NCBI GenBank assembly: GCA_036172245.1
Contig: JAYWIR010000038.1
Location: forward strand, 1,364,001-1,428,000
Direction: 5' to 3'
Length of the DNA: 64,000 nt
Origin: Raillietiella orientalis
Lineage: Eukaryota
The position numbers and the translations under genes are program-made. The notes beneath the pieces were generated by a model that worked only from the letters and a program-made list of their open reading frames with translations, ran no database searches and had not been told where the DNA came from. Of the stretch, positions 18,440 through 59,234 are shown in pieces (the first letter of the stretch is position 1; every line of letters starts with the position of its first letter).

Positions 18440-19090
18440 ATGAGTTATCCGGCGCTCTGCCTCTCCAAGTCGGATGCATGCAAGAACCTTCCACCTGCCC
18501 AGGACTGTCAGAAGCAGCAGAAGAGGCACCCGGATTTCCAGAGGAGCTCCTCGGCGAAGCCCGCCTCCGTCGCGAGGAGGAACGCAAGGGAGAGAAACCG
18601 CGTGAAGCAAGTTAACAACGGGTTCATGGTGCTCAAGCAGCACCTTCCTTCGGGAGCGAGGCACAGGAAGATGAGCAAAGTGGAGACCCTCAGGAAGGCG
18701 GTGGACTACATCAGGACCCTCCAGGACCTGCTGGGCTGCTGCCAGAAGGATCCGTCGCTGGAATGCGAGATCGACACGGAGAGCGACGGCTCCAGCGTTC
18801 TGTCCGAACGATCCGCCTGCGACGACGCGTACTCGTCGCTCCCGGACTACCACCACCACCACCACCACCAGGCGCCCTACTGGCTCGAGCCACCACCGGC
18901 CAGCGACAGATCCCCTTATCCTGCGTACTGCTGCCTGTCGAATCCGGAAGTTTGCCACAGTTACGGCGAATGCCCGAGGCGCGCAGCGGCGTACTTCCCG
19001 GAGTACGGCCAGGACAGTAAGAATTCTTCTGCCTACGGCAGCGCCGACGAGGAACTCCTGGACGCAATCATGTGCTGGCAGCGATCGTGA
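18440..19090 (+). CDS. ash: Achaete-scute family proneural bHLH transcription factor (ASH type), single exon, 216 aa
   Basis: b[31 protein letters not shown]...[22 protein letters not shown] and C-terminal [13 protein letters not shown] (cf. PDDEELLDYISWWQ). First ATG is in ACCATG context at 18440; the track start at 18398 is a TTG. Confidence 0.96.
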
Positions 19091-31460: not shown

Positions 31461-32607
31461 GGTGAGTGTTTCGAAGCACTGAGGGCCACTCGAGGTCTTC
31501 TGGTGGACCCCAGCTTACAAGTCCTCTCGGTGCGGCAATTAGAGTCGCAGCGTCTGTTGCCTGAAAGCTTTCGGGAGACCTCAGTCAGTTGCCTCCGGTC
31601 ATCGCTGACCTTGAGGCCACCGACGCCACCAGAGGAGGCCAGAAGCCGGGCTGCCTTGGCAGAAGAGTTCTCTGCGGATGCAGTTCTTTGGTGACTCGAT
31701 TTCTCACAGCGGCACTTCCACGAACGATTCCTTCTCCATCACGGCGACCGTCGGCACCGTTGCTGGCGCCGCTGTCAGGGGTGGCTACCGTGGGAAAACG
31801 CATGCTCTTGGCCCCCTCAGCAGCCCTCTCAGCTCTCTCGGCAGGAGCTCGAAGGATGGTGCCAAATCAGGACTCACACGAGGGGACGGCAGCGTGCGAA
31901 GACGAGGTGCTGTCTTCAAATCACGACCAAACAGTGACAGTGTCTCCATGATGGTGAGTCGAAGGGGAGAAAACGGATGGGAAAGATAGTGAGAATGGCC
32001 TCCTTTCTCAAAGTGAATTCGATCTACAAGGCGCACAAACGAGCTAAAGTGATGCATAAGGATGGAATCTTCCAGAAGTGAGGCAGGCGAACAATGAAAG
32101 TCAGCACGAGAGCACCGGCATAGCGGACAAGATAGCACGAAAGCCCTCGATTCCGATGTCTGTTTGAGTGACCGTGACACGCGTAAGAATCGGACAAGGA
32201 AAGAAGACTCGACGGGAGAATTCTTCCTGGTGTGGATTCATGAAGGTGAGCGCCGAGGTCTCTCCCTGTTTTAGCGTTTCCCGTGCGAACGATAGCTAAC
32301 GGATCACAACGAAAAAAGGGTCCAACGGATTGAATAACAATCTTTCCCTGAGGCAGGATTTTTGATTTTCCATCGTCCACACCACCGGTCACTCAAGTGT
32401 TGAATCGCATACATCTGTGGTTCGGCAGCAGCATCACGTTCCGAAGAATTCAAGTTCCCAACTTCGAAGTGCGAGAGAAGATGGAGGTGGAGACGAAACC
32501 GCAAGCATAAGATGAAAGTCCTTTGTTAGAGGATTCTGCAATCTTAGACACAGAAGTGATGTGTACGAAGTACACGGTAGCAACACCAACTCACTCTAGT
32601 GCCATGA

Positions 32608-32641
32608 GCTTCTCGGCCTTTTGGCCAAGATCAAAGTGCAG
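32608..32641 (+). pseudogene. U2: U2 snRNA 5' fragment (about nt 4-37)
   Basis: GCTTCTCGGCCTTTTGGCCAAGATCAAAGTGCAG versus U2 GCTTCTCGGCCTTTTGGCTAAGATCAAAGTGTAG (2 mismatches in 34). It stops before TATCTG, and no 3' U2 portion was seen. Confidence 0.88.
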
Positions 32642-33378
32642 AGTCTCGGCTAAATCTACTCCCAACTAGAAGCAGAATAATCTCGTTGTCCTCATAATTC
32701 CATCATTCCGTGGGCAGATGCTGCATCACAAAATTGATGTTATTCCGTATGCAGCGCAGCTGATAGTCAAAAGGAACCAAGGGCTCATCTAGAGTGTGGT
32801 AACACGTTCTGCTCCGTGAATCACTGTCCCAAGACTTCCAAGAATTCTTGCAAATCCTCACTCAAACTGATAAAGCACATAATGGCTGCCAGCCACGTTG
32901 ATGGCGAATCCATAGTTGCTGGAAGAAGGAAAGCAGATCGCACATGCTGGTGCTGTAAAATTTGGGAGGAGACGTTGCCTCGCATCGGAAAGCACTGCGT
33001 GAAGCACCCTCATCTGTACACCTCACGACATGATGCTCTGCTGGAAAGAGGGAAGACCTCCGCAGTGACCATAGCGAAATAGAAGTGCTGGTGTCCCACA
33101 ACCAAGAGGCTGCTGATGTGGATTGCACGCTGCGGCCCGATTTGTTGTTGCAGAAGGGCAACTGGTTGGACGTGTGCTATCCGCTCGAAAATGGGGAAGA
33201 AGCGTTCAGCATTGCCAGTAAAGAAAAACTTGACAAGTATGGGGATGTTTCCTGTCAGCTATCGACTGAAGAAGTTCCATGCAGAGCTCATCTTCTCATC
33301 ATCGGACCATTGAGGACAGGGGACCCTATCAATGATGCTGTGATGTGGAAGTTCCTAGAAAGCACTTGGACAAGATGA
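32642..33378 (+). mobile_element. 5'-truncated, decayed Utopia/NeSL-type RLE non-LTR retrotransposon
   Basis: RLNLLPTR at 32647; CCHC region DRTCWCCKIWEETLPRIGKHC...RHDALLER; restriction-like endonuclease LRPDLL...LDVCYPLENGEEAF...KEKLDKY...IIGPLRTGDPIND. Stops and frameshifts present. Confidence 0.82.
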
Positions 33379-33602
33379 AGGATTATATAGGACCTTTTGC
33401 ATCCAGCGCACCAGGGACATCTACTGGAGCCATGTGCTTGGACTTCTCCCAGGCGACGGATGCAGATGCCTATCACCTAAAAAACGATGGAGTTCAATCG
33501 AGGCGACTTCCGAGCGAAAAGGACGACATTCTGATAGCTGAAACAGCGGAACATCCAGGAGAATGAAGTTTATTGGCTTCGGCCTATATAATCCTTCATC
33601 TT
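33372..33602. repeat. Perfect 20-bp inverted repeat bounding a 231-bp segment
   Basis: AAGATGAAGGATTATATAGG (33372-33391) and CCTATATAATCCTTCATCTT (33583-33602). Confidence 0.9.
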
Positions 33603-35599
33603 CGGAACAGATGGGAGGATTTGCAGATATTACAGATCCCCACTGTTGCAGTCATACGTATTGCCCCAAATTTTCTCTACATCAAATCCGTCATGAGCTA
33701 AGACAAAGAGTAAAGAGCAAATAAATTGCATTTCTTAACAAGATGATTTGAGGTCCATCCAATGGAATCGAAAAGAAAAAAGAAAACATTTCGTTACATA
33801 GGTGCCACTCTGAACCTCCCTTCTTACCAGGGGAACACACGAAGATGATTCTTCTCAATGGACATCATCTTTTGGAACGCTGCCCAGTGGCATGACGGAT
33901 TCACATAAAGACACGCTTATGGAGATGTGCTGAATCAGCATAACATTCGTCGGCCTCATTGAAGCACTCTGCTGGTCACCTCTGCCCAAGATTTGGGAGG
34001 CAAGGAAACTCGGGAAGCAACGAGGTGTTCACGGTAGCTGCAAGACTGAATACGGAGCAGCGTTAAGGGAAGTAACCGGTTGTGTGGCGATGGGCACAGC
34101 ACGGATGTCCTGACGCCCAAGGCATAAACAGCTCGGGCCATTTGCTGCTGAAAAGCAAACGCGGAAGAGCTGGCAAAAAAAACAAAACAAAACATAAAAA
34201 AGCAAATCACGAGGGAATTTCGACTCGGTCTCTCCTTCCTCATCAATGTGCACGAGGGAATAGCACGTCAGAAGGAAGGTGTCGCGGTTGGTTTCTATCC
34301 AAATGACCGAATTTTCGGCGAGAGCAGAAGGAGCCAAAGGAATTTTCTCGGCGCTTTTAAGACGTTCGCTTCCTCTCTCGAGCTGCAGAAGCAAAGCTGA
34401 GCTCGACTCTGGTCGGACGAGAAGCATCCTTGTTTTCCAGGTGTTTCGTCATTGTGTCCTTCACGCACGTTGCCACACTTGCAAGATAAAAACGGATTTT
34501 CCCTTATCGGATTCGTGGAGCGAGCGCCGCTGAAGTACTGGCATGCGCCACAGATTTGTCAAACGTGAAAAACGATTCATTCAAGGATCGTTGACCTAAT
34601 CACCGTGACATCACATCTCGGTGTGATGCTGATTAGAGAGGATCTGGGATTTCTTTCTTTTTCTTTTTTTTTTTTTACATGACTTCCCTTCAACAAGTTG
34701 CTTTCGTTCCCTTTCATATCTTGCCGAGGTATTCTGACGTCCGCCTTTTTTTTTTGGGAGGGGGGAGGGAGGAGGGAGGATGATTTCTCTTTGCAGTGCA
34801 TTTCGTTTTCAAGTCCGAAATTAGTCGAAACGCAACGTCATCACATCATCCCTGTTGACATTCAGCAGGCTTGCCATGCTTTGGATGGCACAATGGATGC
34901 CATTCTTTCGTGGCGATCGAACAAGTGTCTCAGTTGCAAGGCAGCAGGCCAATAACGCGGGTTCAAAAATCTTCAATGCAAACTCGCCAAGACTTTTTGT
35001 GCTTGCTGAGGTTGTTTAAGAAAGAATCCGGCTTCGGTGTCGCGCTGACAAATTGCCAACTGGGTTTCACATTGACAAAGTGAAATGAACCGAGTTGAGA
35101 ATTAAATGAAGACAGGTCTGATCCCATTCTTCAGATGGAGTTTCAGAACCCGTGCGGTTCGTCTCGGCGCTCCAGAGACCGAGGCGAATTTTCTGCTGGT
35201 AGTGTTTCTGCAATGTTGCCAAACTCAGCGAGCGCAGGTGAAGAAAGGGAACCAACGCAACACAGATAACTGAGACGTGCCGAAGAGGAATCAACCTCCA
35301 AAATCAGGATACTAGGATTCGACCGAAGGTGAACGAAAGGGAAGCCGAATTTGGGGTATGGAAGAGCCTAGAAGAGAAAGTGAGAATGAACGACCTGGAA
35401 ACGCAGAAAATACACGGAATATTCTTCTTTCGGGAGCTGAAGAAAGCAAGATCGAAGTACCAGAGAAATGGGCCCCACGCTAACTTAAGAAAGGCCCTTC
35501 GGCAGAACGGTCGTAGCGACGCAAAGGCATTATGCAAGTAGCACTTCCAAATTTTCCGGGATGGAAATGACTCGGCATTGGATCTTCGAGCAGCCAATT

Positions 35600-37585
35600 G
35601 CTAAAGAACATCTGGACGCCATCTACAGAATTTCACTTTTCTGATGTTAATGAAACACCGAGGGTTCTCGGTTTGGCTGCGCTGAAATCTACCGATGGAT
35701 CCAACGACTGGCCTGAAAGAAAGGCAGCTGGATGCTCGGTTAGCACGCATGGCAACGATCGGCATCTTAACTACCATTCTCCCTGAAGAAGATGCTGGCT
35801 TCCTGTCCGCGAAACACATAAACAGGAATAGTCAGTGGGACGAAAGGTTGAAAGTGTTTCTGTGAGAATCACGAACTGGAAAAGGTCGGCGCGTCCATCG
35901 GATGCAAAAAGGTGGGTCATTTTTGTGGGAACTCTTCGCGAAAGAACTTCTCATTCATGACACGGCAAAGAATTCATGGAAGTGCGTTTGTGCTGAAAGA
36001 GATCATTCTCCCGGGAATTTGCTCGGGAAACAGATACTGATTAGGAGAATTGATTCCTAAAGATCATGAGGTGTGCATGCAAAAGAATCTCGTCAGCAGG
36101 AGGTCAGTGATTCGAAAGTTTAGAGCTGAAGACCAGATTTTTCGCATGCCATCACATCGGCTATTCCTCTACACGGGAAGAATTATGCATCTCCGGTTCC
36201 AGTTCACTTTCCAAAATGTACCGGTGCTGCGCGTCACTTTCACTCTCAGTCAGATGCATGTATCCCATGATGAGAACATCGTTCGTGCGATTTCGCGCGA
36301 AGCTCACTTGGCAACCGCAAACTTCCGCCCCGTCTGCTGCACTCCAGTCACCAGCAATGATCATGAGCGAGTGAATGACCTCACTCGCTCATGATCAAGT
36401 CCAGAATTTAAGCCTTCCGTGCAGGATCTGAGAGCCCGACAGTCACAAGATTCGATCTCATCATGGAAATTGGTATCAGATCCTGGAAGACCCACATTAG
36501 GGAGTGATGATCGTGGAGGAGGATGTGGTTGTAGACGTCAAAGCCATGGGGCAGGAGGGCTTTGTTTATCTGATTCGGGGGATGAGAAAATTTACATGAG
36601 TGAGCTGAAAGATGAAATAAGAAGGTGCTATTGGTTTTGGTGCACACCTGCTCTGCTGGACGTTTGACATTGTCCCGCTGCTCCCTCCACCCTAGCGGCA
36701 CGCATCTTACTGAAACGCCCAACTTTATCACGAGGGCACTCAGACGGTGTTGAAGTTCCGATGACTTTAAATTGCCGTGTGCGACGACTTCGCCGGGATC
36801 GCCATTTATTATCATATGTTCAAATGCATCCGCACGTTGGTGGTTCTGCCCCACTCTTTTTTCAGCGATCACCATTCAGGGGTTCCGCAGGATGGCAGCC
36901 TCAGCACTGCGCCCTTCGTGATTGGTCCCTTCGTAAGTCTCAGTCGTTGAGAACACCGAAACATCTCGGCGCGCGGTGCCCACCGACGGGATGGTGCCAT
37001 CGCGCGTGCGCAGAACAAGCGGCGCACGGAAAGAACGGAACCCTTTGATCTTAGCCACGAGGCCGAGAAGCGAGAAGCGAACCCTGCAGGCGCCATGCAT
37101 CTCCTGCACACTCTCTACCAGTAGACCGTTCGAGAGTTTGCGTCATTATTTGACACAACTTTTGGGTTGCCCGTCGTCAAGTCGAAGGAACATGCCTTGC
37201 TCTGGAATGGGGAAAATCCCTAGAGGGTTCTCGTTTACAGGATGCTGATCTGAGAGGAAGCAGTGAGGGCGACGGGAGAGAAGAGCAGATCAAGTTAACA
37301 GAGGAAGTTCAGGAAACGGTTTTACAGCTTCAGCTGAGACATGACTACGAGGGAAGAATGACTTCCTCTGCCATCTCACGGGAGGCCGCACAATTATTTC
37401 GATGGCTCCTTTGGGAAACGATAGTTCTCAGAGGGGAAAACCGTTCGCAATGGCATGACGAAACGCCCATGACCTTCATTGATGTCTCGCTCGCAAATCT
37501 TCATAACGTTTCTTGGAGTCAGGAATGTGTGAATTCTTACAAAGTTTTTGTCTACGCTCCCTCCATCTTGGAGTTTCACAAATAA
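35600..37585 (+). mobile_element. Decayed BEL/Pao pol relic
   Basis: Colinear remnants: RVLGL, QWDERL, IPKDHEVC (cf. IPRLELC), HVSHDENIVRAISRE (cf. HVxxxENPADxxSRG), LFRWLLWE...RSQW (cf. FWxRWxxEY...RxKW). Confidence 0.5.
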
Positions 37586-50100: not shown

Positions 50101-51062
50101 CTGATTCGCAAGCATGTGGTCGCATCTGGGTGGACGGCATGAGGCGTGGCACGCCGGCACAGATTCAGTCTTGCATCTCTTATAGTTCCATCATCTTCCG
50201 ACAGTCGTTTTCACGCTTCCATTCAATCCGCTGTCGAGTCCCGCGAAGATTACGGTTGATTGGGCAGGAGCTCTGGTCGGCTGGCTGAACAAGTCAACAA
50301 AGAAAGTGGCCCCAATTGTATTTCTGGATATTCTGTAGACCCACACACTCTTTCGATGGTGGTAGTTGCTGTGTCTGCTGACTGTACTGCCTGACAATCA
50401 GCTACCTACATGGCAGAGAATGAGATGCTCCCAGTGCGCCTCCGAGTTGGGGAGGGGTAGTGGGACAAACAAGCGGATGCACCTCAGACACGCTCTTCTC
50501 CTTAACACTCGGTGCCTTCCAGCGCCCAGACGAGAGCGGATCGGAAAGGTAGATAAGCTATTAGAATCTGGAGAGTTTCTTTGGAGATCTGGCGTCTTTT
50601 ATTCCAATGCCTTTTATTCTTTTGTACATTCTCCAATAAATTCCAATTCTAAAGTTTTTTCTATTTCATATCGGGCAGCCGTTAGGCATCAAAGAGCAGG
50701 TGCAAGAGGAGCGTGTTTCCAGCTTAAGAAGTGGCGACTATTGTGAGTTAAAATGCACTGGGAGTTACTCGATTCCTCCTTCCAAACTGAAGATCTTCCA
50801 AACATACCTGGCATCTGTCGAAAACTCGAGGTAACCCAGATTTTCTCCTAGTCTTGTCCTACGATCTCTTCACTCTATTCACAGCATCGAGTGATGGATC
50901 ATAAAAAATAAACATACATGTTTATCACATATATAAATATATAAAAAACACATACATTTGACATCGTGAACATATGTACTTATAATATATGATAATTTAT
51001 CTCTCTATGTAAATGTAAAGGTAAACGTAGGCGTAAATGTATATGTATATGCATAGGAGACC

Positions 51063-51330
51063 GGGACCCGAAAGATGGTGAACTATGCCTGGCAAGGATG
51101 AAGTCAGAGGAAACTGGTGGGGATGCTCAGCGATCCCATCTTGCAAATTGATGGTAGGAGCAGGGACGAAAGATGAAACGAATTTTCCAGAAGCTGCTGG
51201 TTCCCTCCTAAGTTTCCCTCAGGGTCGCTGGTGCTCGTCGAAAATGAAGGAGAACGGAGCCGCATCCGATGAAGGGAATAATCAGAGGTCTTGGAGGCGA
51301 AATGATCCCGAGATTCGTCTCTTTGATCCC
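51063..51330 (+). pseudogene. Decayed 28S rRNA fragment, left part
   Basis: GGGACCCGAAAGATGGTGAACTATGCCTG, GCTGGTTCCCTCCTAAGTTTCCCTCAGG and AGAGGTCTTGG match conserved, colinear LSU core blocks. Confidence 0.92.
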
Positions 51331-51333
51331 CCT

Positions 51334-51578
51334 ATTCTCCTTCATTCATCCTCAATCTTCCTACCCCTAGTCTTTCTTAGAACATTAATTACATTGTCAA
51401 CCAATAATCGACTAATAATCTGATTAAGATTAGAAATCAATACAGTTTCCATATGTCCCATCATCTCAACCCCAACTACTCTATTCTCTGCACATTCTAC
51501 AACAAAATATTTCCTAATCCAAGCAGCTTCATCATCACTTTTTCTATTCACCTGTATTATTTTCAACTCCTTCCCCTG
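51334..51578 (+). pseudogene. nad2: NUMT: mitochondrial NADH dehydrogenase subunit 2 N-terminal fragment
   Basis: In the invertebrate mitochondrial code it reads open: ILLHSSSIFLPLVFLSTLITLSTNNRLMIWLSLEINTVSMCPII...STTKYFLIQAASSSLFLF, with the ND2 motifs WxxLEIN and KYFLxQA. G-poor strand composition. Confidence 0.88.
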
Positions 51579-51905
51579 CCTATTCGCAAACTTCAAATGG
51601 GCAAGAAGCCCAGTGGGAACTTTGCAGTTCGATTTGTCGGATCCAAGAACGGCCAGTGGGTCCATTTCGGTGAGCACATCTGGCGCCACAGGACGAATCA
51701 GATGTTGGGTCATGGCTCCCGATGCGACGCTCACCAGATCCCATGAAAGTTGTTGGCTGGTTGCTATGGAGAGCAGGACGGCGACGCTGGAAGTAGGAAT
51801 CCGCTAAGGGCTCGCCCGACGACTCACCCACCCGGAGTCACGCGCCCTGCGGGAAGTGAACTGCATCCCAGGAGTCCCGCCTGCACCCGGCCGCTGGGGC
51901 AGAGG
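51579..51905 (+). pseudogene. Decayed 28S rRNA fragment, right part
   Basis: CCTATTCGCAAACTTCAAATGGGCAAGAAGCCC, AGCAGGACGG...TGGAAGTAGGAATCCGCTAAGG and ACTCACC continue the LSU sequence from the left part. Confidence 0.9.
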
Positions 51906-53051
51906 CGTTCCTGAATTCCGGCACACCGCCGCTGTGGGATGGCGGGTTCCTTAGGTTCCGATGCACGCAGAAGAGGTTGGGCGCGGGGTTGCTTTGGGCT
52001 GTTTCAGTCCGGTTGATCCCAAGCCCCTGGAGAAATACATATATATATACATAGGGAGAGAGAAAGGGACAACGTATATGTGTAAATATATATTTATGTT
52101 CCGTTTCTCTCTATATATATGTATGAACATGTACATGTACATTTATTTTTATAATCGTTAATATATATATTAATAGGTATCATTACTTATATTAATAACA
52201 TGTATGTTAAAATGAATTTATGTAGCAATGTATGTCTTAATATACATAATAAGCATCTGTATTTATTTCGTACGATGTTTCGAGCTTTCGGCCTGATTAC
52301 CCCCACCTGGTCCATTCCGAGGTCCCGAGCAGAGCGCAGCCCGCGGAGGGTCGATGCCGCAGCGCGCAGCGCGTGGGCGCGGTTTCCGCCTCACCTAAGC
52401 CTTCCCTTTGAACGAAAACAGCAGTTTGCGCTAACGGTGGGAGGTGGCCAAATCCCTTTTGTCTCTTTGGCGCGCGCTTGTTGAGGATGCTCGCTCGATG
52501 AGTGCTTTGGGTGTCTGTCGCCCCTGGGGGCGCGAAAATCCGTCCTCATGGCACAGGGACGGCAGGCCTCTCAGGAGAGGCTGCGTCGTCGTCCATGTGT
52601 GAAGAATTCTGCGTGCGGGGTGTTCGCGAGAAGGCAGGAGAATCTCCCTCGAGGCGACGGGGATCCAGGGATCGGCGATGAGTTCTTCAAAGTTCCATTT
52701 CATATCGGGCCTGGAAATACACCCACGGAAAACCCAGGGGAAGATCCAAATGTCCTTCCGTCTGCAGAGAGCCCTGCTGCCGCTTCCTGGAACTGCGGCA
52801 ATCAGGGTCTTCCACCTTCCAAGGAATTCGTTAGAAAGTCCTTCATGCGGGATGGCAGTAGCGGATGCCGTCTCGTTCTGCTCGCCAGACGGAAAGCTCA
52901 AGTCTGCAATCTCACTTTATTGTGTGTGAGAAGACATCAGCAGTCGTTTGCAAAGGTCGCCGTCGACAGTCCCTGACCCATCAGACAAACACACCGTAGA
53001 ATAACTCCAGAGGCGCTCGGCCACATCTCAGAAGTTCTCTCCACATCCTCA

Positions 53052-57349: not shown

Positions 57350-57830
57350 TTTTTTTTCTTAGGTGTTCTCTCTTTTTTTGGCTCGCTGAGCTCTGGAGAA
57401 CCACTCGCCTTAGCGAATGCTCACAGAGCTCTTTAAGCACCGCCCACGCCCTCGAGGGTGCGTGCCGACTCTTCAAGTTGGAGGAGTGACCCCGGAGGGA
57501 GCACCCTGTGAATCCAGGAAGGTGCCGGAGGAAGGCATCCCTTCCTTTCTCACTCTTGGGGTGGACGGGGAGGACCCCGAAGGGTACCTCTTTCCAGAGG
57601 AATCCCCCGTAGGAGAGGTTACCTTTCTCCTCTGGAGGGAAACCGAAAAAGATCCGCTCCTTGTTTCCTCCCCTGAAGAGAATCCCACGACATCCTTCGG
57701 AAGAAGGGGAAACTCGAAACCCAAGATGCACCCGTTTCTCGGCGTCGACCTTTCCCCTCGGGTGGGATTCGAACCCGCAGCGCTCGGTACCGCGCGCGCG
57801 GAGACCGCAGCCACACGGCGCTGCCAACGC
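57350..57830 (-). mobile_element. tRNA-headed SINE-like repeat, copy 6 (best-preserved head, A-rich tail)
   Basis: Minus strand: GCGTTGGCAGCGCCGTGTGGCTGCGGTCTCCGCGCGCGCGGTACCGAGCGCTGCGGGTTCGAATCCCACC (clear B box), family body and tail, then A-rich end. Confidence 0.8.
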
Positions 57831-59234
57831 AGAAATACCGTCTTAGATCGGACATGCCGTTATGCCGTACGCGTCATACACAGACTGGTGCTTCACAGTC
57901 AAAAACTGGAACTGGTCCGATGGACCATTATCCATCAAGCAATGGAACAAGAAAACATTGCTCACATGCCATCATCTCCAAAGAAGAAGCAATAACAGGA
58001 ACTTGGCACCTGCAAGCATACCTGCAGATGCATGAACATAGGACTTTGTCTCAACTTAGAAGACAGTCATTCCACAGATCGCACCCTGAGCACGCTAAAG
58101 GGAGCATCCAGTCCAATATCGATTACTTCTCCTAGCAGGATACAGTACCCTGGGCATTTGGGGCACCAGGACTCGAAGAGCAGGACGACACATACGAAAA
58201 AAGGACGGGACATCTTCCGAACGGGCACTCTTTCCAAAAATCTCTCTCAGATCCTCATAATCCTACAATCAGGAAAAGATGAATGCTACACACCAATTTT
58301 TATTCGAAGAACATTACATCCATCAAAGAATGCATTCGTCTACATAGAGCTACCTACCATATTAATTCCGTGTTGAATTTTCAACTCAGAGAGTGGCAGC
58401 TACAGGTTATTAACATTCTCAGACATCCTACCCACTTACGAAACAACATCTGGATCAAGGATGAACGAGGTAGTGGCGGACTCTGTGGCTTTATCTTGAA
58501 ATTAGGCACTTAGAGATCCTTTTGGATATAGGGCGTTTGGAGTGCCACTCTCTGGGTCAGCAACGGAACCTGCTGGTTTCGTTGCTGACTTTTTCTGAAA
58601 CTTCTGTAAAAGATTTCCGGTTAGTCCTGTGTAACCTCTGTGTGGTTCAGTTCAAAATCCCGAAGGTCGTAAACTTGAAAGGTCATGAAAAATAAATATA
58701 CATGCCCATTGTGTATATTAATATGTGCCGGTTCCCCATCCTTGTGGATTGGCCATAGCGTGTACGACCTATCCGTGAGGATCCGAGAGGGTGAGGAGGC
58801 GGTAGGAAGGCAGCCCTAGTCTCCTACTCTTGGATGCCCATTTCAAACTGACGCCGAACGGGCATGGGAAGATTTTGGCAACTCTGCCCTCATCCTGCTC
58901 TTGCCCTCTGGCCCTGGCAGCTTGAGCCGACCATTTCCTTCTCCTGTGTCCCATGTCCACTCCGGAAGCACCTATCGGCAAATTAGAAAGGGCATGGAGA
59001 TGAACAGGATGGTCGTTTCTACACGTTCCACGTGGGCTAGACCGGCACCACCTAGAAATCCTTAGGCACCAGGAACAGGTGGACACGGAGGAACCTGAAA
59101 TCCCACCGGACTACTTTCCTGAGGAATTCTTCTCTCCTCTCCGTAACGGACCACCGGCTGGAATGCACACGTCCCCCCTCGTCCTGCTTCCGCAGCTATT
59201 CGTATGTCTCCCTTCCAAAGCTGGATATCACACT

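What the first reader, a model, noticed from the sequence alone, without database searches (positions are those of the whole stretch)
32608..33378. U2 snRNA 5' end fused directly to a truncated Utopia-type RLE retrotransposon, with no U2 3' half
Seen: 34 nt of U2 end at GTG(C/T)AG, and 6 nt later the frame reads RLNLLPTR. A CCHC knuckle and a PD...D...PxENG...K..KY endonuclease follow. Established: Utopia (NeSL-related RLE clade) and Keno elements target U2 genes at about this position. Inference: this is a U2-targeting lineage in this genome. I see no downstream U2 remainder (TATCTGTTC...) and no obvious snRNA promoter upstream, so it may be an ectopic chimera, formed by reverse transcriptase jumping onto U2 RNA or by mobilisation of a U2-element junction, and not a simple insertion in a U2 gene.
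Basis: partly seen in the sequence, partly recalled or inferred. Interest (0 to 1): 0.85.

Follow-up and report, generated by a model that had tools for sequence, protein, structure and literature searches.

The report
Dead Utopia retrotransposon stub on U2
This is a decayed tail-end fragment of a U2-gene-targeting "Utopia"-type jumping gene, still joined to the first ~40 bases of a U2 snRNA at the family's usual insertion site; it is an ordinary relic of a known kind of element, although the rest of the U2 gene is missing.

Summary
Window 32604-32643 is a U2 snRNA 5' piece of the arthropod type. It runs straight into RLNLLPTR, a conserved motif of RLE-type non-LTR retrotransposon proteins. 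A degenerate CCHC knuckle, a PD-D-K restriction-like endonuclease and a weak C-terminal motif follow, broken by at least two frameshifts. No reverse transcriptase lies anywhere in the 64 kb.

The closest full-length relatives carry RVT_1 plus CCHC and RLE. They align end to end with a metagenome family whose 3' ends abut U2 at ...ATCAAA|TCTGTTC, the defining Utopia junction.

The U2 piece here stops within 0-3 nt of that same site. This fits site-specific insertion and argues against a random reverse-transcriptase jump onto U2 RNA.

Five searches found no U2 3' half in the window. A candidate 3' junction, ATCAAA|TCCGT at 33681-33691, keeps at most a few U2 bases.

- about 250 nt of unassigned DNA between RLNLLPTR and the knuckle;
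- a second orphan U2 5' piece at 37043-37074 (-);
- a 20-nt perfect inverted repeat in the element's tail.

No genome or sequencing run was available, so in-place insertion cannot be separated from a mobilised U2-element chimera. Verdict: new member of a known kind, low to moderate interest.

The parts
32604..32643 (+). U2 snRNA 5' head, equivalent to fly U2 nt 1-39 with one extra base near the start
   Evidence: Rfam RF00004 27.7 bits. 27-nt core with 1 mismatch, 0 of 100 shuffles gave a hit. Arthropod-type GATCAAAG, compared by eye with the fly U2 line of S1 Fig. About 33 of 39 positions identical, counted by eye.
32644..32671 (+). Element-coded S-RLNLLPTR-S, the start of the 5'-truncated copy
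   Evidence: Direct reading. RLNLLP is identical to the ARLNLLP block that sits 13-15 residues before the knuckle; the block is present in all 7 relatives aligned and exact in 2 of them. My estimate of this hexapeptide arising by chance in 300 nt is about 5e-5.
32672..32920 (+). About 250 nt with no detectable homology, where relatives have about 10 codons
   Evidence: No profile or tblastn match. No second copy in the window. The flanking motifs are in frames that differ by one.
32927..33067 (+). Degenerate CCHC zinc knuckle plus the RHD(N) motif
   Evidence: hmmsearch profile positions 802-848 of 977, E 4.8e-7; E 4.5e-9. BLASTP to P0004 is 34% over 44 aa. The His column reads Arg.
33088..33375 (+). 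Restriction-like endonuclease domain (RPD...LDV...PLENG...EK..KY), in a different frame from the knuckle
   Evidence: Profile positions 853-947, E 5.7e-18. 46% identity to P0004 over 78 aa (77 aa by tblastn), E 3e-17. The invariant P, D, N and K columns are kept. A family profile hits the RLE of solved R2 proteins at E 2.6e-16.
33398..33445 (+). Weak C-terminal motif (..RTRDIYWSHVLG), in yet another frame
   Evidence: Collinear but weak: profile 395-410, i-E 0.28; tblastn E 0.29 and 0.69.
33446..33686 (+). Putative 3' UTR
   Evidence: Inference from the position of the C-terminal motif and the candidate 3' junction. The related L003 family has a 3' UTR of about 148 nt.
33372..33391 (+). Left arm of a perfect 20-nt inverted repeat
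   Evidence: Folds as a 21-bp long-range stem, MFE -87.6 kcal/mol, z -4.9, 0 of 200 shuffles as stable. No counterpart in L002-L004.
33583..33602 (+). Right arm of the inverted repeat
33681..33691 (+). Candidate 3' junction ATCAAA|TCCGT
   Evidence: 10 of 11 identical to the L003 junction ATCAAA|TCTGT. There are 3 hits in the window against 1.13 expected. My estimate for a chance hit in the 400-nt expected zone on this strand is about 0.004. The choice of motif was post hoc.
32603..32610 (+). 8-mer CATGAGCT, repeated at 33692-33699 (candidate target-site duplication, weak)
   Evidence: My estimate of chance is 0.03-0.09.
33692..33699 (+). Second copy of CATGAGCT
32533..32541 (+). PSEA-like near-match ATTCTGCAA, 63-71 nt upstream of the U2 head
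   Evidence: 18 matches in the window against 20.75 expected, so only its position is of note. Drosophila's invariant core is ATTC-CAA, centred about 50-55 nt upstream.
37043..37074 (-). Second orphan U2 5' piece (about nt 3-32, with a 7-nt duplication at its start)
   Evidence: Its flanks are unrelated to those of the first head.

Best explanation
This is a dead, heavily 5'-truncated copy of a Utopia-type non-LTR retrotransposon. Utopia is the NeSL/R2-related lineage that carries a C-terminal restriction-like endonuclease and nicks U2 snRNA sequence after ...GTAGTA.

Only the last ~18% of the ORF and the 3' UTR were copied, or survive. Target-primed reverse transcription started at the nick. 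The cDNA stopped early, inside the conserved F-A-D-W-R-F-I-H-x-A-R-L-N-L-L-P block. It was then joined to the upstream target, which leaves U2 nt 1-39 directly in front of RLNLLPTR.

The target was a U2-derived sequence in place: either a gene copy or a short U2 pseudogene fragment. The U2 3' part was either never there or was lost later.

Shown: the U2 head, the RLE/CCHC homology, the junction position, and the absence of RT and of a U2 3' half. Inferred: the insertion mechanism, the 3' end near 33686, and the nature of the target.
For: 1. The U2 head is real and of arthropod type.
2. The fragment is homologous to the C-terminal part of RT-RLE proteins. 29 of 1.84 billion representatives scored E<=1e-3. 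7 of the 11 I scanned carry RVT_1. The window matches only profile positions 802-947 of 977.
3. P0004, the closest full-length relative, aligns over residues 197-1019 with locus L003 (214+175 bits), against 203 bits to the best solved R2 protein.
4. In that metagenome family, 4 of 5 loci show ...ATCAA(A)|TCTGTTCTTATCAG followed by U2. The fifth contig ends before the junction could appear.
5. The head here ends at the equivalent of fly U2 nt 39, which is the site where Kojima & Jurka report a precise boundary and no target-site duplication in arthropods. A random break in a ~190-nt U2 lands within +-3 nt of that site about 4% of the time (my estimate).
6. A candidate 3' junction, ATCAAA|TCCGT, lies 240 nt after the last coding motif.
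7. S1 Fig of PMC4640811 shows aphid Utopia copies followed by only ~21 nt of U2 and then unrelated DNA. A missing U2 3' half therefore has precedent.
Against: - No RT survives, so clade placement by RT phylogeny is impossible.
- The window's RLE is only 33% identical over 40 aa to the U2-linked L003 protein (E 0.005). The link runs through intermediates.
- The five U2-linked loci are one near-identical family, so they are a single data point.
- No U2 3' half was found, although the 5' head is still about 85% conserved. A simple in-gene insertion therefore needs an extra event.
- The 3' junction was chosen post hoc and keeps only 5 U2-like bases.
- About 250 nt between RLNLLPTR and the knuckle are unexplained.
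- The exact Drosophila PSEA core is absent; only a near-match at the wrong spacing is present.
Confidence: 0.55

Rival explanations
1. Mobile chimera. A truncated Utopia copy sitting in a real U2 gene was transcribed from the U2 promoter, starting at U2 nt 1. It read through a few bases into the downstream U2. A Utopia enzyme acting in trans then retrotransposed this RNA to an unrelated site. The whole unit (U2 head, element tail, short U2 tag) is then one insert, a SINEU-like non-autonomous element.
For: - The head starts at or near U2 nt 1.
- There is no U2 3' half in 64 kb.
- The 8-mer CATGAGCT sits at the head's 5' edge and again 5 nt after the candidate 3' junction, as a target-site duplication around the whole unit would.
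- Short U2 3' tags followed by unrelated DNA are seen after aphid Utopia copies.
- Crocodilian SINEU show that U2-headed retroelements can arise.
- A second orphan U2 head lies 4.4 kb away.
Against: - The 8-mer repeat is weak (my estimate is p 0.03-0.09).
- Only one copy can be seen, so no family is shown.
- The second U2 head is followed by unrelated DNA.
- A PSEA-like near-match upstream fits a gene context better.
- Utopia in wasps is strictly U2-specific.
Confidence: 0.25
2. Template-switch chimera. During reverse transcription of the element's RNA, the enzyme jumped onto a free U2 snRNA and copied it to its 5' end, as in L1-U6 chimeras.
For: - snRNA-LINE chimeras made this way are documented in human, including two U2 cases (passage in PMC4494074).
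- There is no U2 3' half and no exact promoter core upstream.
Against: - A jump would normally land at or near the snRNA 3' end or at an arbitrary position. Here the U2 part stops within 0-3 nt of the family's own cleavage site, which this model leaves as a coincidence of about 4%.
- The candidate 3' junction with TCCGT is not predicted.
Confidence: 0.07
3. Not Utopia. A fragment of another RLE lineage (R2-like, NeSL or unclassified) came to lie next to a U2 pseudogene fragment by rearrangement or by chance.
For: - The RLE profile also matches solved R2 proteins at E 2.6e-16.
- Recent work separates Utopia from R2 largely by the absence of a Myb domain, which cannot be seen here.
- The window holds another orphan U2 piece, so such pieces are not rare locally.
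Against: - The join is base-precise between the canonical U2 site and an in-frame conserved ORF motif.
- The single-sequence search found no R2 structure at E<=10, while P0004-type relatives score 3e-17.
- P0004 is closer to the U2-linked family than to R2.
Confidence: 0.08

Closest known systems
Utopia (U2 snRNA gene-targeting NeSL-clade non-LTR retrotransposons; Kojima & Jurka 2015, PMC4640811)
   Same: C-terminal zinc knuckle plus PD-(D/E)xK endonuclease. U2 on the 5' side ending at the canonical site. Arthropod-like host. No target-site duplication of U2 sequence at the junction. Some published arthropod copies also lack most of the U2 3' part (S1 Fig).
   Different: No RT, N-terminal fingers or 5' UTR survive. 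There is no recognisable U2 after the 3' end beyond about 5 bases. An extra ~250 nt sits inside the ORF remnant. The 3' UTR shares none of the six 10-11-mer strings I tried against the 3' termini printed in S1 Fig.
R2 (28S rDNA-specific RLE retrotransposons; solved structures 9nl2, 9nl3, 9dou, 8gh6)
   Same: Homologous RLE domain (profile E 2.6e-16) and RT in the full-length relatives. Insertion by target-primed reverse transcription with frequent 5' truncation is recalled for R2, not taken from a call.
   Different: The target here is U2, not 28S. A single-sequence search finds no R2 structure. The Myb domain that defines R2 cannot be assessed.
SINEU (crocodilian SINEs with U1/U2-derived heads; Kojima 2015, PMC4494074)
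   Same: A short U2 5' sequence at the head of a retroelement body, with no U2 gene around it.
   Different: SINEU bodies have no known LINE partner sequence and are tied to Tx1-type elements and a Mariner target. Here the body is an RLE ORF remnant, the host is arthropod-like, and no family of copies is shown.
Keno (Tx1-clade, APE-type, U2-specific)
   Same: Same 3' flanking U2 position, according to PMC4640811.
   Different: Keno encodes an apurinic/apyrimidinic-like endonuclease. This fragment encodes a restriction-like one.
L1-mediated snRNA chimeras and tailless snRNA retropseudogenes (cited in PMC4494074)
   Same: snRNA 5' parts found away from genes. This is a possible origin of the second orphan U2 piece and of the target.
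   Different: Those have arbitrary snRNA end points. Here the end point is the Utopia cleavage site.

Membership tests
Utopia | Restriction-like (PD-(D/E)xK) endonuclease at the C-terminus of the ORF | tested here: met
   Profile match E 5.7e-18. Invariant P, D, N, K columns kept. Homology to the RLE of solved R2 proteins through the family profile.
Utopia | Zinc finger (CCHC) just upstream of the RLE | tested here: met
   Matches at E 4.5e-9. It is degenerate: the His column reads Arg.
Utopia | 5' side flanked by the U2 5' part ending at the specific site (no TSD in arthropods) | tested here: met
   The head 32604-32643 ends at the equivalent of fly U2 nt 39.
Utopia | 3' end followed by U2 from ...TCTGTTCTTATCAG | tested here: not met
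   No U2 3' part by Rfam, Smith-Waterman or nhmmer. There is only a candidate ATCAAA|TCCGT. In print, 20 of 65 families have no copy flanked by U2 at all and 21 of 65 lack a U2 3' flank, so this feature is not universal.
Utopia | RT groups within the NeSL clade with other Utopia | not testable with these tools
   No RT in the window. Proxy only: the closest full-length relative aligns end to end with a U2-flanked family.
Utopia | Other copies of the family in the same genome associate with U2 | not testable with these tools
   No genome held, no runs listed, no other copy in the window.
R2 | Insertion in the conserved 28S rDNA site | tested here: not met
   The flank is U2. The only 28S-like stretch is 18 kb away, at 51057-51962.
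R2 | N-terminal Myb domain | not testable with these tools
   The N-terminus is absent from this copy.
SINEU-like U2-headed non-autonomous element | Many copies share the same head-body junction at unrelated sites | not testable with these tools
   Only one copy is visible. The second U2 head has an unrelated body.
Functional U2 snRNA gene | Full-length U2 reaching the Rfam gathering score, with a PSEA centred about 50-55 nt upstream | tested here: not met
   27.7 bits against a cut-off of 46. Only a near-match, ATTCTGCAA, lies at -71..-63.

The most novel reading that the evidence does not exclude
The unit from 32603 to 33699 is one retrotransposed insert. It would be a U2-promoter-driven read-through RNA (U2 nt 1-39, a truncated Utopia tail, and a few bases of downstream U2), copied in trans to a U2-like but non-U2 site and flanked by an 8-bp duplication. 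That would make it an arthropod counterpart of crocodilian SINEU, but with an identifiable LINE partner. The second orphan U2 head nearby would be another product of the same process.
Probability: 0.2. Interest if true: 0.55.

Novelty: new member of a known kind. Interest (0 to 1): 0.27.

Why it matters
This adds one more decayed Utopia copy in an arthropod-like genome, a group where the lineage is already described. Its use is mainly for annotation: it explains an orphan U2 fragment and an ORF remnant.

It would matter more if a genome census showed many U2-headed copies with this same junction. That would document how a site-specific element inside an snRNA gene can borrow the gene's promoter and give rise to a SINE-like family. 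For crocodilian SINEU, that step is only inferred.

Tried and rejected
- Own genome: not held. Earlier findings of the scan: nothing. Sequencing runs: none was listed, so no reads were laid.
- Related loci for the closest relatives: the first query, alignment A1, was too diverse. The genome contigs and viral-contig scans gave nothing.
- Word-indexed protein search for longer relatives: none at E<=1e-5.
- Pfam on the window's own pieces: nothing relevant.
- By-eye resemblances to a U2 3' half at about 33728, 33846-33980 and on the minus strand at 33603-33645: rejected. The Smith-Waterman score was 25.5, and 90 of 300 shuffles reached it. The reverse strand scored 30.5, within the shuffle range. 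No Rfam hit at E<=10. Best nhmmer E was 2.9, elsewhere in the window.
- The U2 nt 40-58 19-mer gave no site with 3 or fewer edits. The one site with 4 edits is 36120-36137 (-), about 905 nt downstream of the second U2 head and preceded by AAAAA. Its position is suggestive (my estimate is p about 0.03), but one such site is expected by chance.
- A U2-like TTATCAGTTT on the minus strand at 32862-32881 matches the vertebrate-type, not the arthropod-type, U2. I treat it as chance.
- Similarity between the flanks or bodies of the two U2 heads: none.
- Identity of the DNA after the second head: no Pfam family for 6 ORFs and no Atlas lead.
- A 10-mer, GGAGATGCAT, flanks the second head's region but not at its edges.
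- A long-range stem like the window's 20-nt inverted repeat is absent from L002-L004.
- Six strings from the window's 3' UTR are absent from S1 Fig of PMC4640811.
- Rows dropped from the protein hit list: P0002 (phage-type DUF551 repeats, matched by a short stretch 23 times), and P0001, P0012 and P0016, which have no RVT_1.

Full report
**What is there**

Reading 32000-34500 shows ATGAGCTTCTCGGCCTTTTGGCCAAGATCAAAGTGCAGAG at 32604-32643. Rfam's U2 model aligns its first ~40 positions here at 27.7 bits. This is below the gathering score of 46, with E 0.004 in a 2-kb search and 0.13 over the whole window.

A 27-nt U2 5' core with up to 3 mismatches hits only twice in the window, and none of 100 shuffles gave any hit. 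The hits are 32608-32634 (+, 1 mismatch) and 37045-37071 (-, 2 mismatches). Both pieces carry GATCAAAG with the extra A. S1 Fig of Kojima & Jurka prints this A for fruit-fly U2 but not for human U2 (compared by eye).

An achaete-scute-type bHLH gene at 18440-19087 has its best full-length matches in arthropods, at about 40% identity. The host is therefore arthropod-like. No closer identification was sought.

**The protein remnant**

TCT CGG CTA AAT CTA CTC CCA ACT AGA follows directly after the head and reads S-RLNLLPTR. A search of 1.84 billion representative proteins with the frame 33034-33378 gave 29 hits at E<=1e-3. The best identity was 46%.

I scanned 11 of those hits against Pfam, and 7 carry RVT_1. 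The other four were set aside: P0002 is a phage-type repeat protein, and P0001, P0012 and P0016 have no RVT_1.

I built a profile from seven full-length relatives and ran it against all six frames of the whole window. It matched only two stretches:
- 32927-33067, profile positions 802-848 of 977: the zinc knuckle and the RH(N/D) motif.
- 33088-33369, profile positions 853-947: the endonuclease.

A weak, collinear C-terminal motif follows at 33398-33445 in a third frame. No reverse transcriptase is present anywhere in the 64 kb.

The endonuclease keeps the invariant P, D, N and K columns of the family. A family profile that includes the window's piece hits the RLE domain of solved R2 proteins at E 2.6e-16. 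The knuckle's His column reads Arg.

The copy is dead. It has at least two frame changes and a 3-residue gap in the RLE.

In all 7 relatives aligned, the A-R-L-N-L-L-P block lies 13-15 residues before the first Cys of the knuckle. Here the two are about 250 nt apart (32672-32920) and in frames that differ by one.

That stretch matches nothing in the protein profile and has no other copy in the window. An insertion of 3n+1 bases would account for it. I could not identify it.

**Is it Utopia?**

Utopia is defined by U2 association at one site and by RT phylogeny within the NeSL clade (PMC4640811; sections read).

A scan of metagenome contigs with an RLE alignment gave five loci. Four of the five (L002, L003, L004, L005) show the element's 3' end ...AACAAAATCAA(A) followed by TCTGTTCTTATCAG and the rest of U2. 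Rfam scores this U2 at up to 113.6 bits with the first ~38 positions unmatched. L001's contig ends before the junction could appear. These loci are one near-identical family, so they count as one data point.

P0004 is the window's closest full-length relative (46% over 78 aa, E 3e-17). It aligns with L003 over residues 197-1019 at 214+175 bits. Its score against the best solved R2 protein is 203 bits.

The window's own RLE matches L003 only weakly (33% over 40 aa, E 0.005). It finds no R2 structure as a single sequence at E<=10.

So the fragment belongs to an RT-RLE group whose kin include a demonstrably U2-inserted family. Placement in a clade remains indirect.

**The junctions**

Kojima & Jurka report a precise 3' boundary before TCTGTTC and no target-site duplication in arthropods. 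The head here ends at the equivalent of fly nt 39, within 0-3 nt of that site. I estimate that a random break point in a ~190-nt U2 would fall that close about 4% of the time.

Downstream, no U2 3' half was found by any of five searches:
- Rfam at E<=10 on 33680-33980.
- Rfam at E<=5 on the whole window.
- Smith-Waterman with a real U2 3' part from L003: score 25.5, reached by 90 of 300 shuffles.
- The same comparison in tiles over both strands of the window.
- An nhmmer profile: best E 2.9, elsewhere in the window.

The L003 junction 11-mer, with up to 1 mismatch, hits at 33681-33691 as ATCAAA|TCCGT. This lies 240 nt after the last coding motif and on the element's strand. There were 3 hits in the window against 1.13 expected. 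I estimate about 0.004 for a chance hit in that zone. The motif was chosen after the fact.

S1 Fig also shows aphid copies followed by only ~21 nt of U2 and then unrelated DNA. A missing 3' half therefore has precedent.

**In place or ectopic?**

Evidence on both sides is weak.
- For a gene context: ATTCTGCAA lies 63-71 nt upstream of the head. The core that is invariant in 23 Drosophila PSEAs is ATTC-CAA, centred about 50-55 nt upstream. The match here has one base too many and sits about 10 nt too far upstream.
- For a single mobile unit: CATGAGCT occurs at the head's 5' edge (32603) and again 5 nt after the candidate 3' junction (33692). My estimate for chance is 0.03-0.09.
- A second orphan U2 head at 37043-37074 (-) has unrelated flanks and an unrelated body. 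No family was found for that body.
- The best U2 nt 40-58-like site in the whole window (4 edits) lies about 905 nt downstream of that second head, on its strand. One such site is expected by chance.

No genome, no sequencing runs and no earlier notes of the scan were available, so copies could not be tabulated.

**Verdict**

I commit to site-specific insertion into a U2-derived sequence, with 5' truncation and later decay, at 0.55. The alternatives are a retro-mobilised U2-Utopia chimera at 0.25, a template switch onto free U2 RNA at 0.07 and a non-Utopia fragment at 0.08.

Arthropod Utopia with 5' U2 flanks is already in print: U2 flanks the 5' side in 11 of 65 families. This is a new member of a known kind.

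The supplements of PMC4640811 other than S1 Fig were not read. Its Fig 1C, which shows the 5' junctions, is a figure and could not be seen. It may bear on the exact arthropod 5' boundary.

Noticed in passing
window 37043-37074 (-), with 36120-36137 (-): A second orphan U2 5' piece (about nt 3-32, with a 7-nt CGCTTCT duplication at its start) and no adjacent RLE homology. About 905 nt downstream on the same strand lies the window's best match to U2 nt 40-58 (TCTGGTCTTCAGCTCTAA, 4 edits), preceded by AAAAA. This may be another interrupted U2 fragment. The intervening DNA matches no family.
   Followed up: partly
window 33372-33391 and 33583-33602: A perfect 20-nt inverted repeat pairs the end of the ORF remnant with the 3' UTR. 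The predicted long-range stem has z -4.9. Perfect arms are unexpected in a copy this decayed. The related metagenome family has no counterpart.
   Followed up: partly
window 32672-32920: About 250 nt of unassigned DNA interrupt the ORF remnant between the RLNLLPTR motif and the zinc knuckle. It may be a secondary insertion.
   Followed up: partly
window 57677-58132 (+): An open frame with a Pfam Viral_Rep match (PF02407, E 8e-8, above the family cut-off). It looks like an endogenous fragment of a circovirus-like (CRESS-DNA) replication protein.
   Followed up: no
window 51057-51962 (+): A partial, diverged eukaryotic 28S rRNA match (Rfam LSU, 99.7 bits, model positions 671-1449 of 3401) far from any rDNA context. 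It looks like an rRNA pseudogene fragment.
   Followed up: no
window 18440-19087 (+): An intronless achaete-scute-type bHLH gene (216 aa). Its best full-length matches are arthropod ASC proteins at about 40% identity. It is the only clear cellular gene seen in the window.
   Followed up: partly
L002 1773-1819 and 2915-3106; L003 4323-4478: The metagenome contigs carry a Utopia family in a U2 and tRNA gene cluster. L002 holds two element 3' ends, each followed by U2 from nt ~38. The second has no ORF in front of it.
   Followed up: partly
protein P0001 (turtle, 1107 aa): A predicted turtle protein contains four tandem, nearly identical copies of an RLE domain (30% identical to the window's). 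It looks like a gene model built over tandem element fragments.
   Followed up: no
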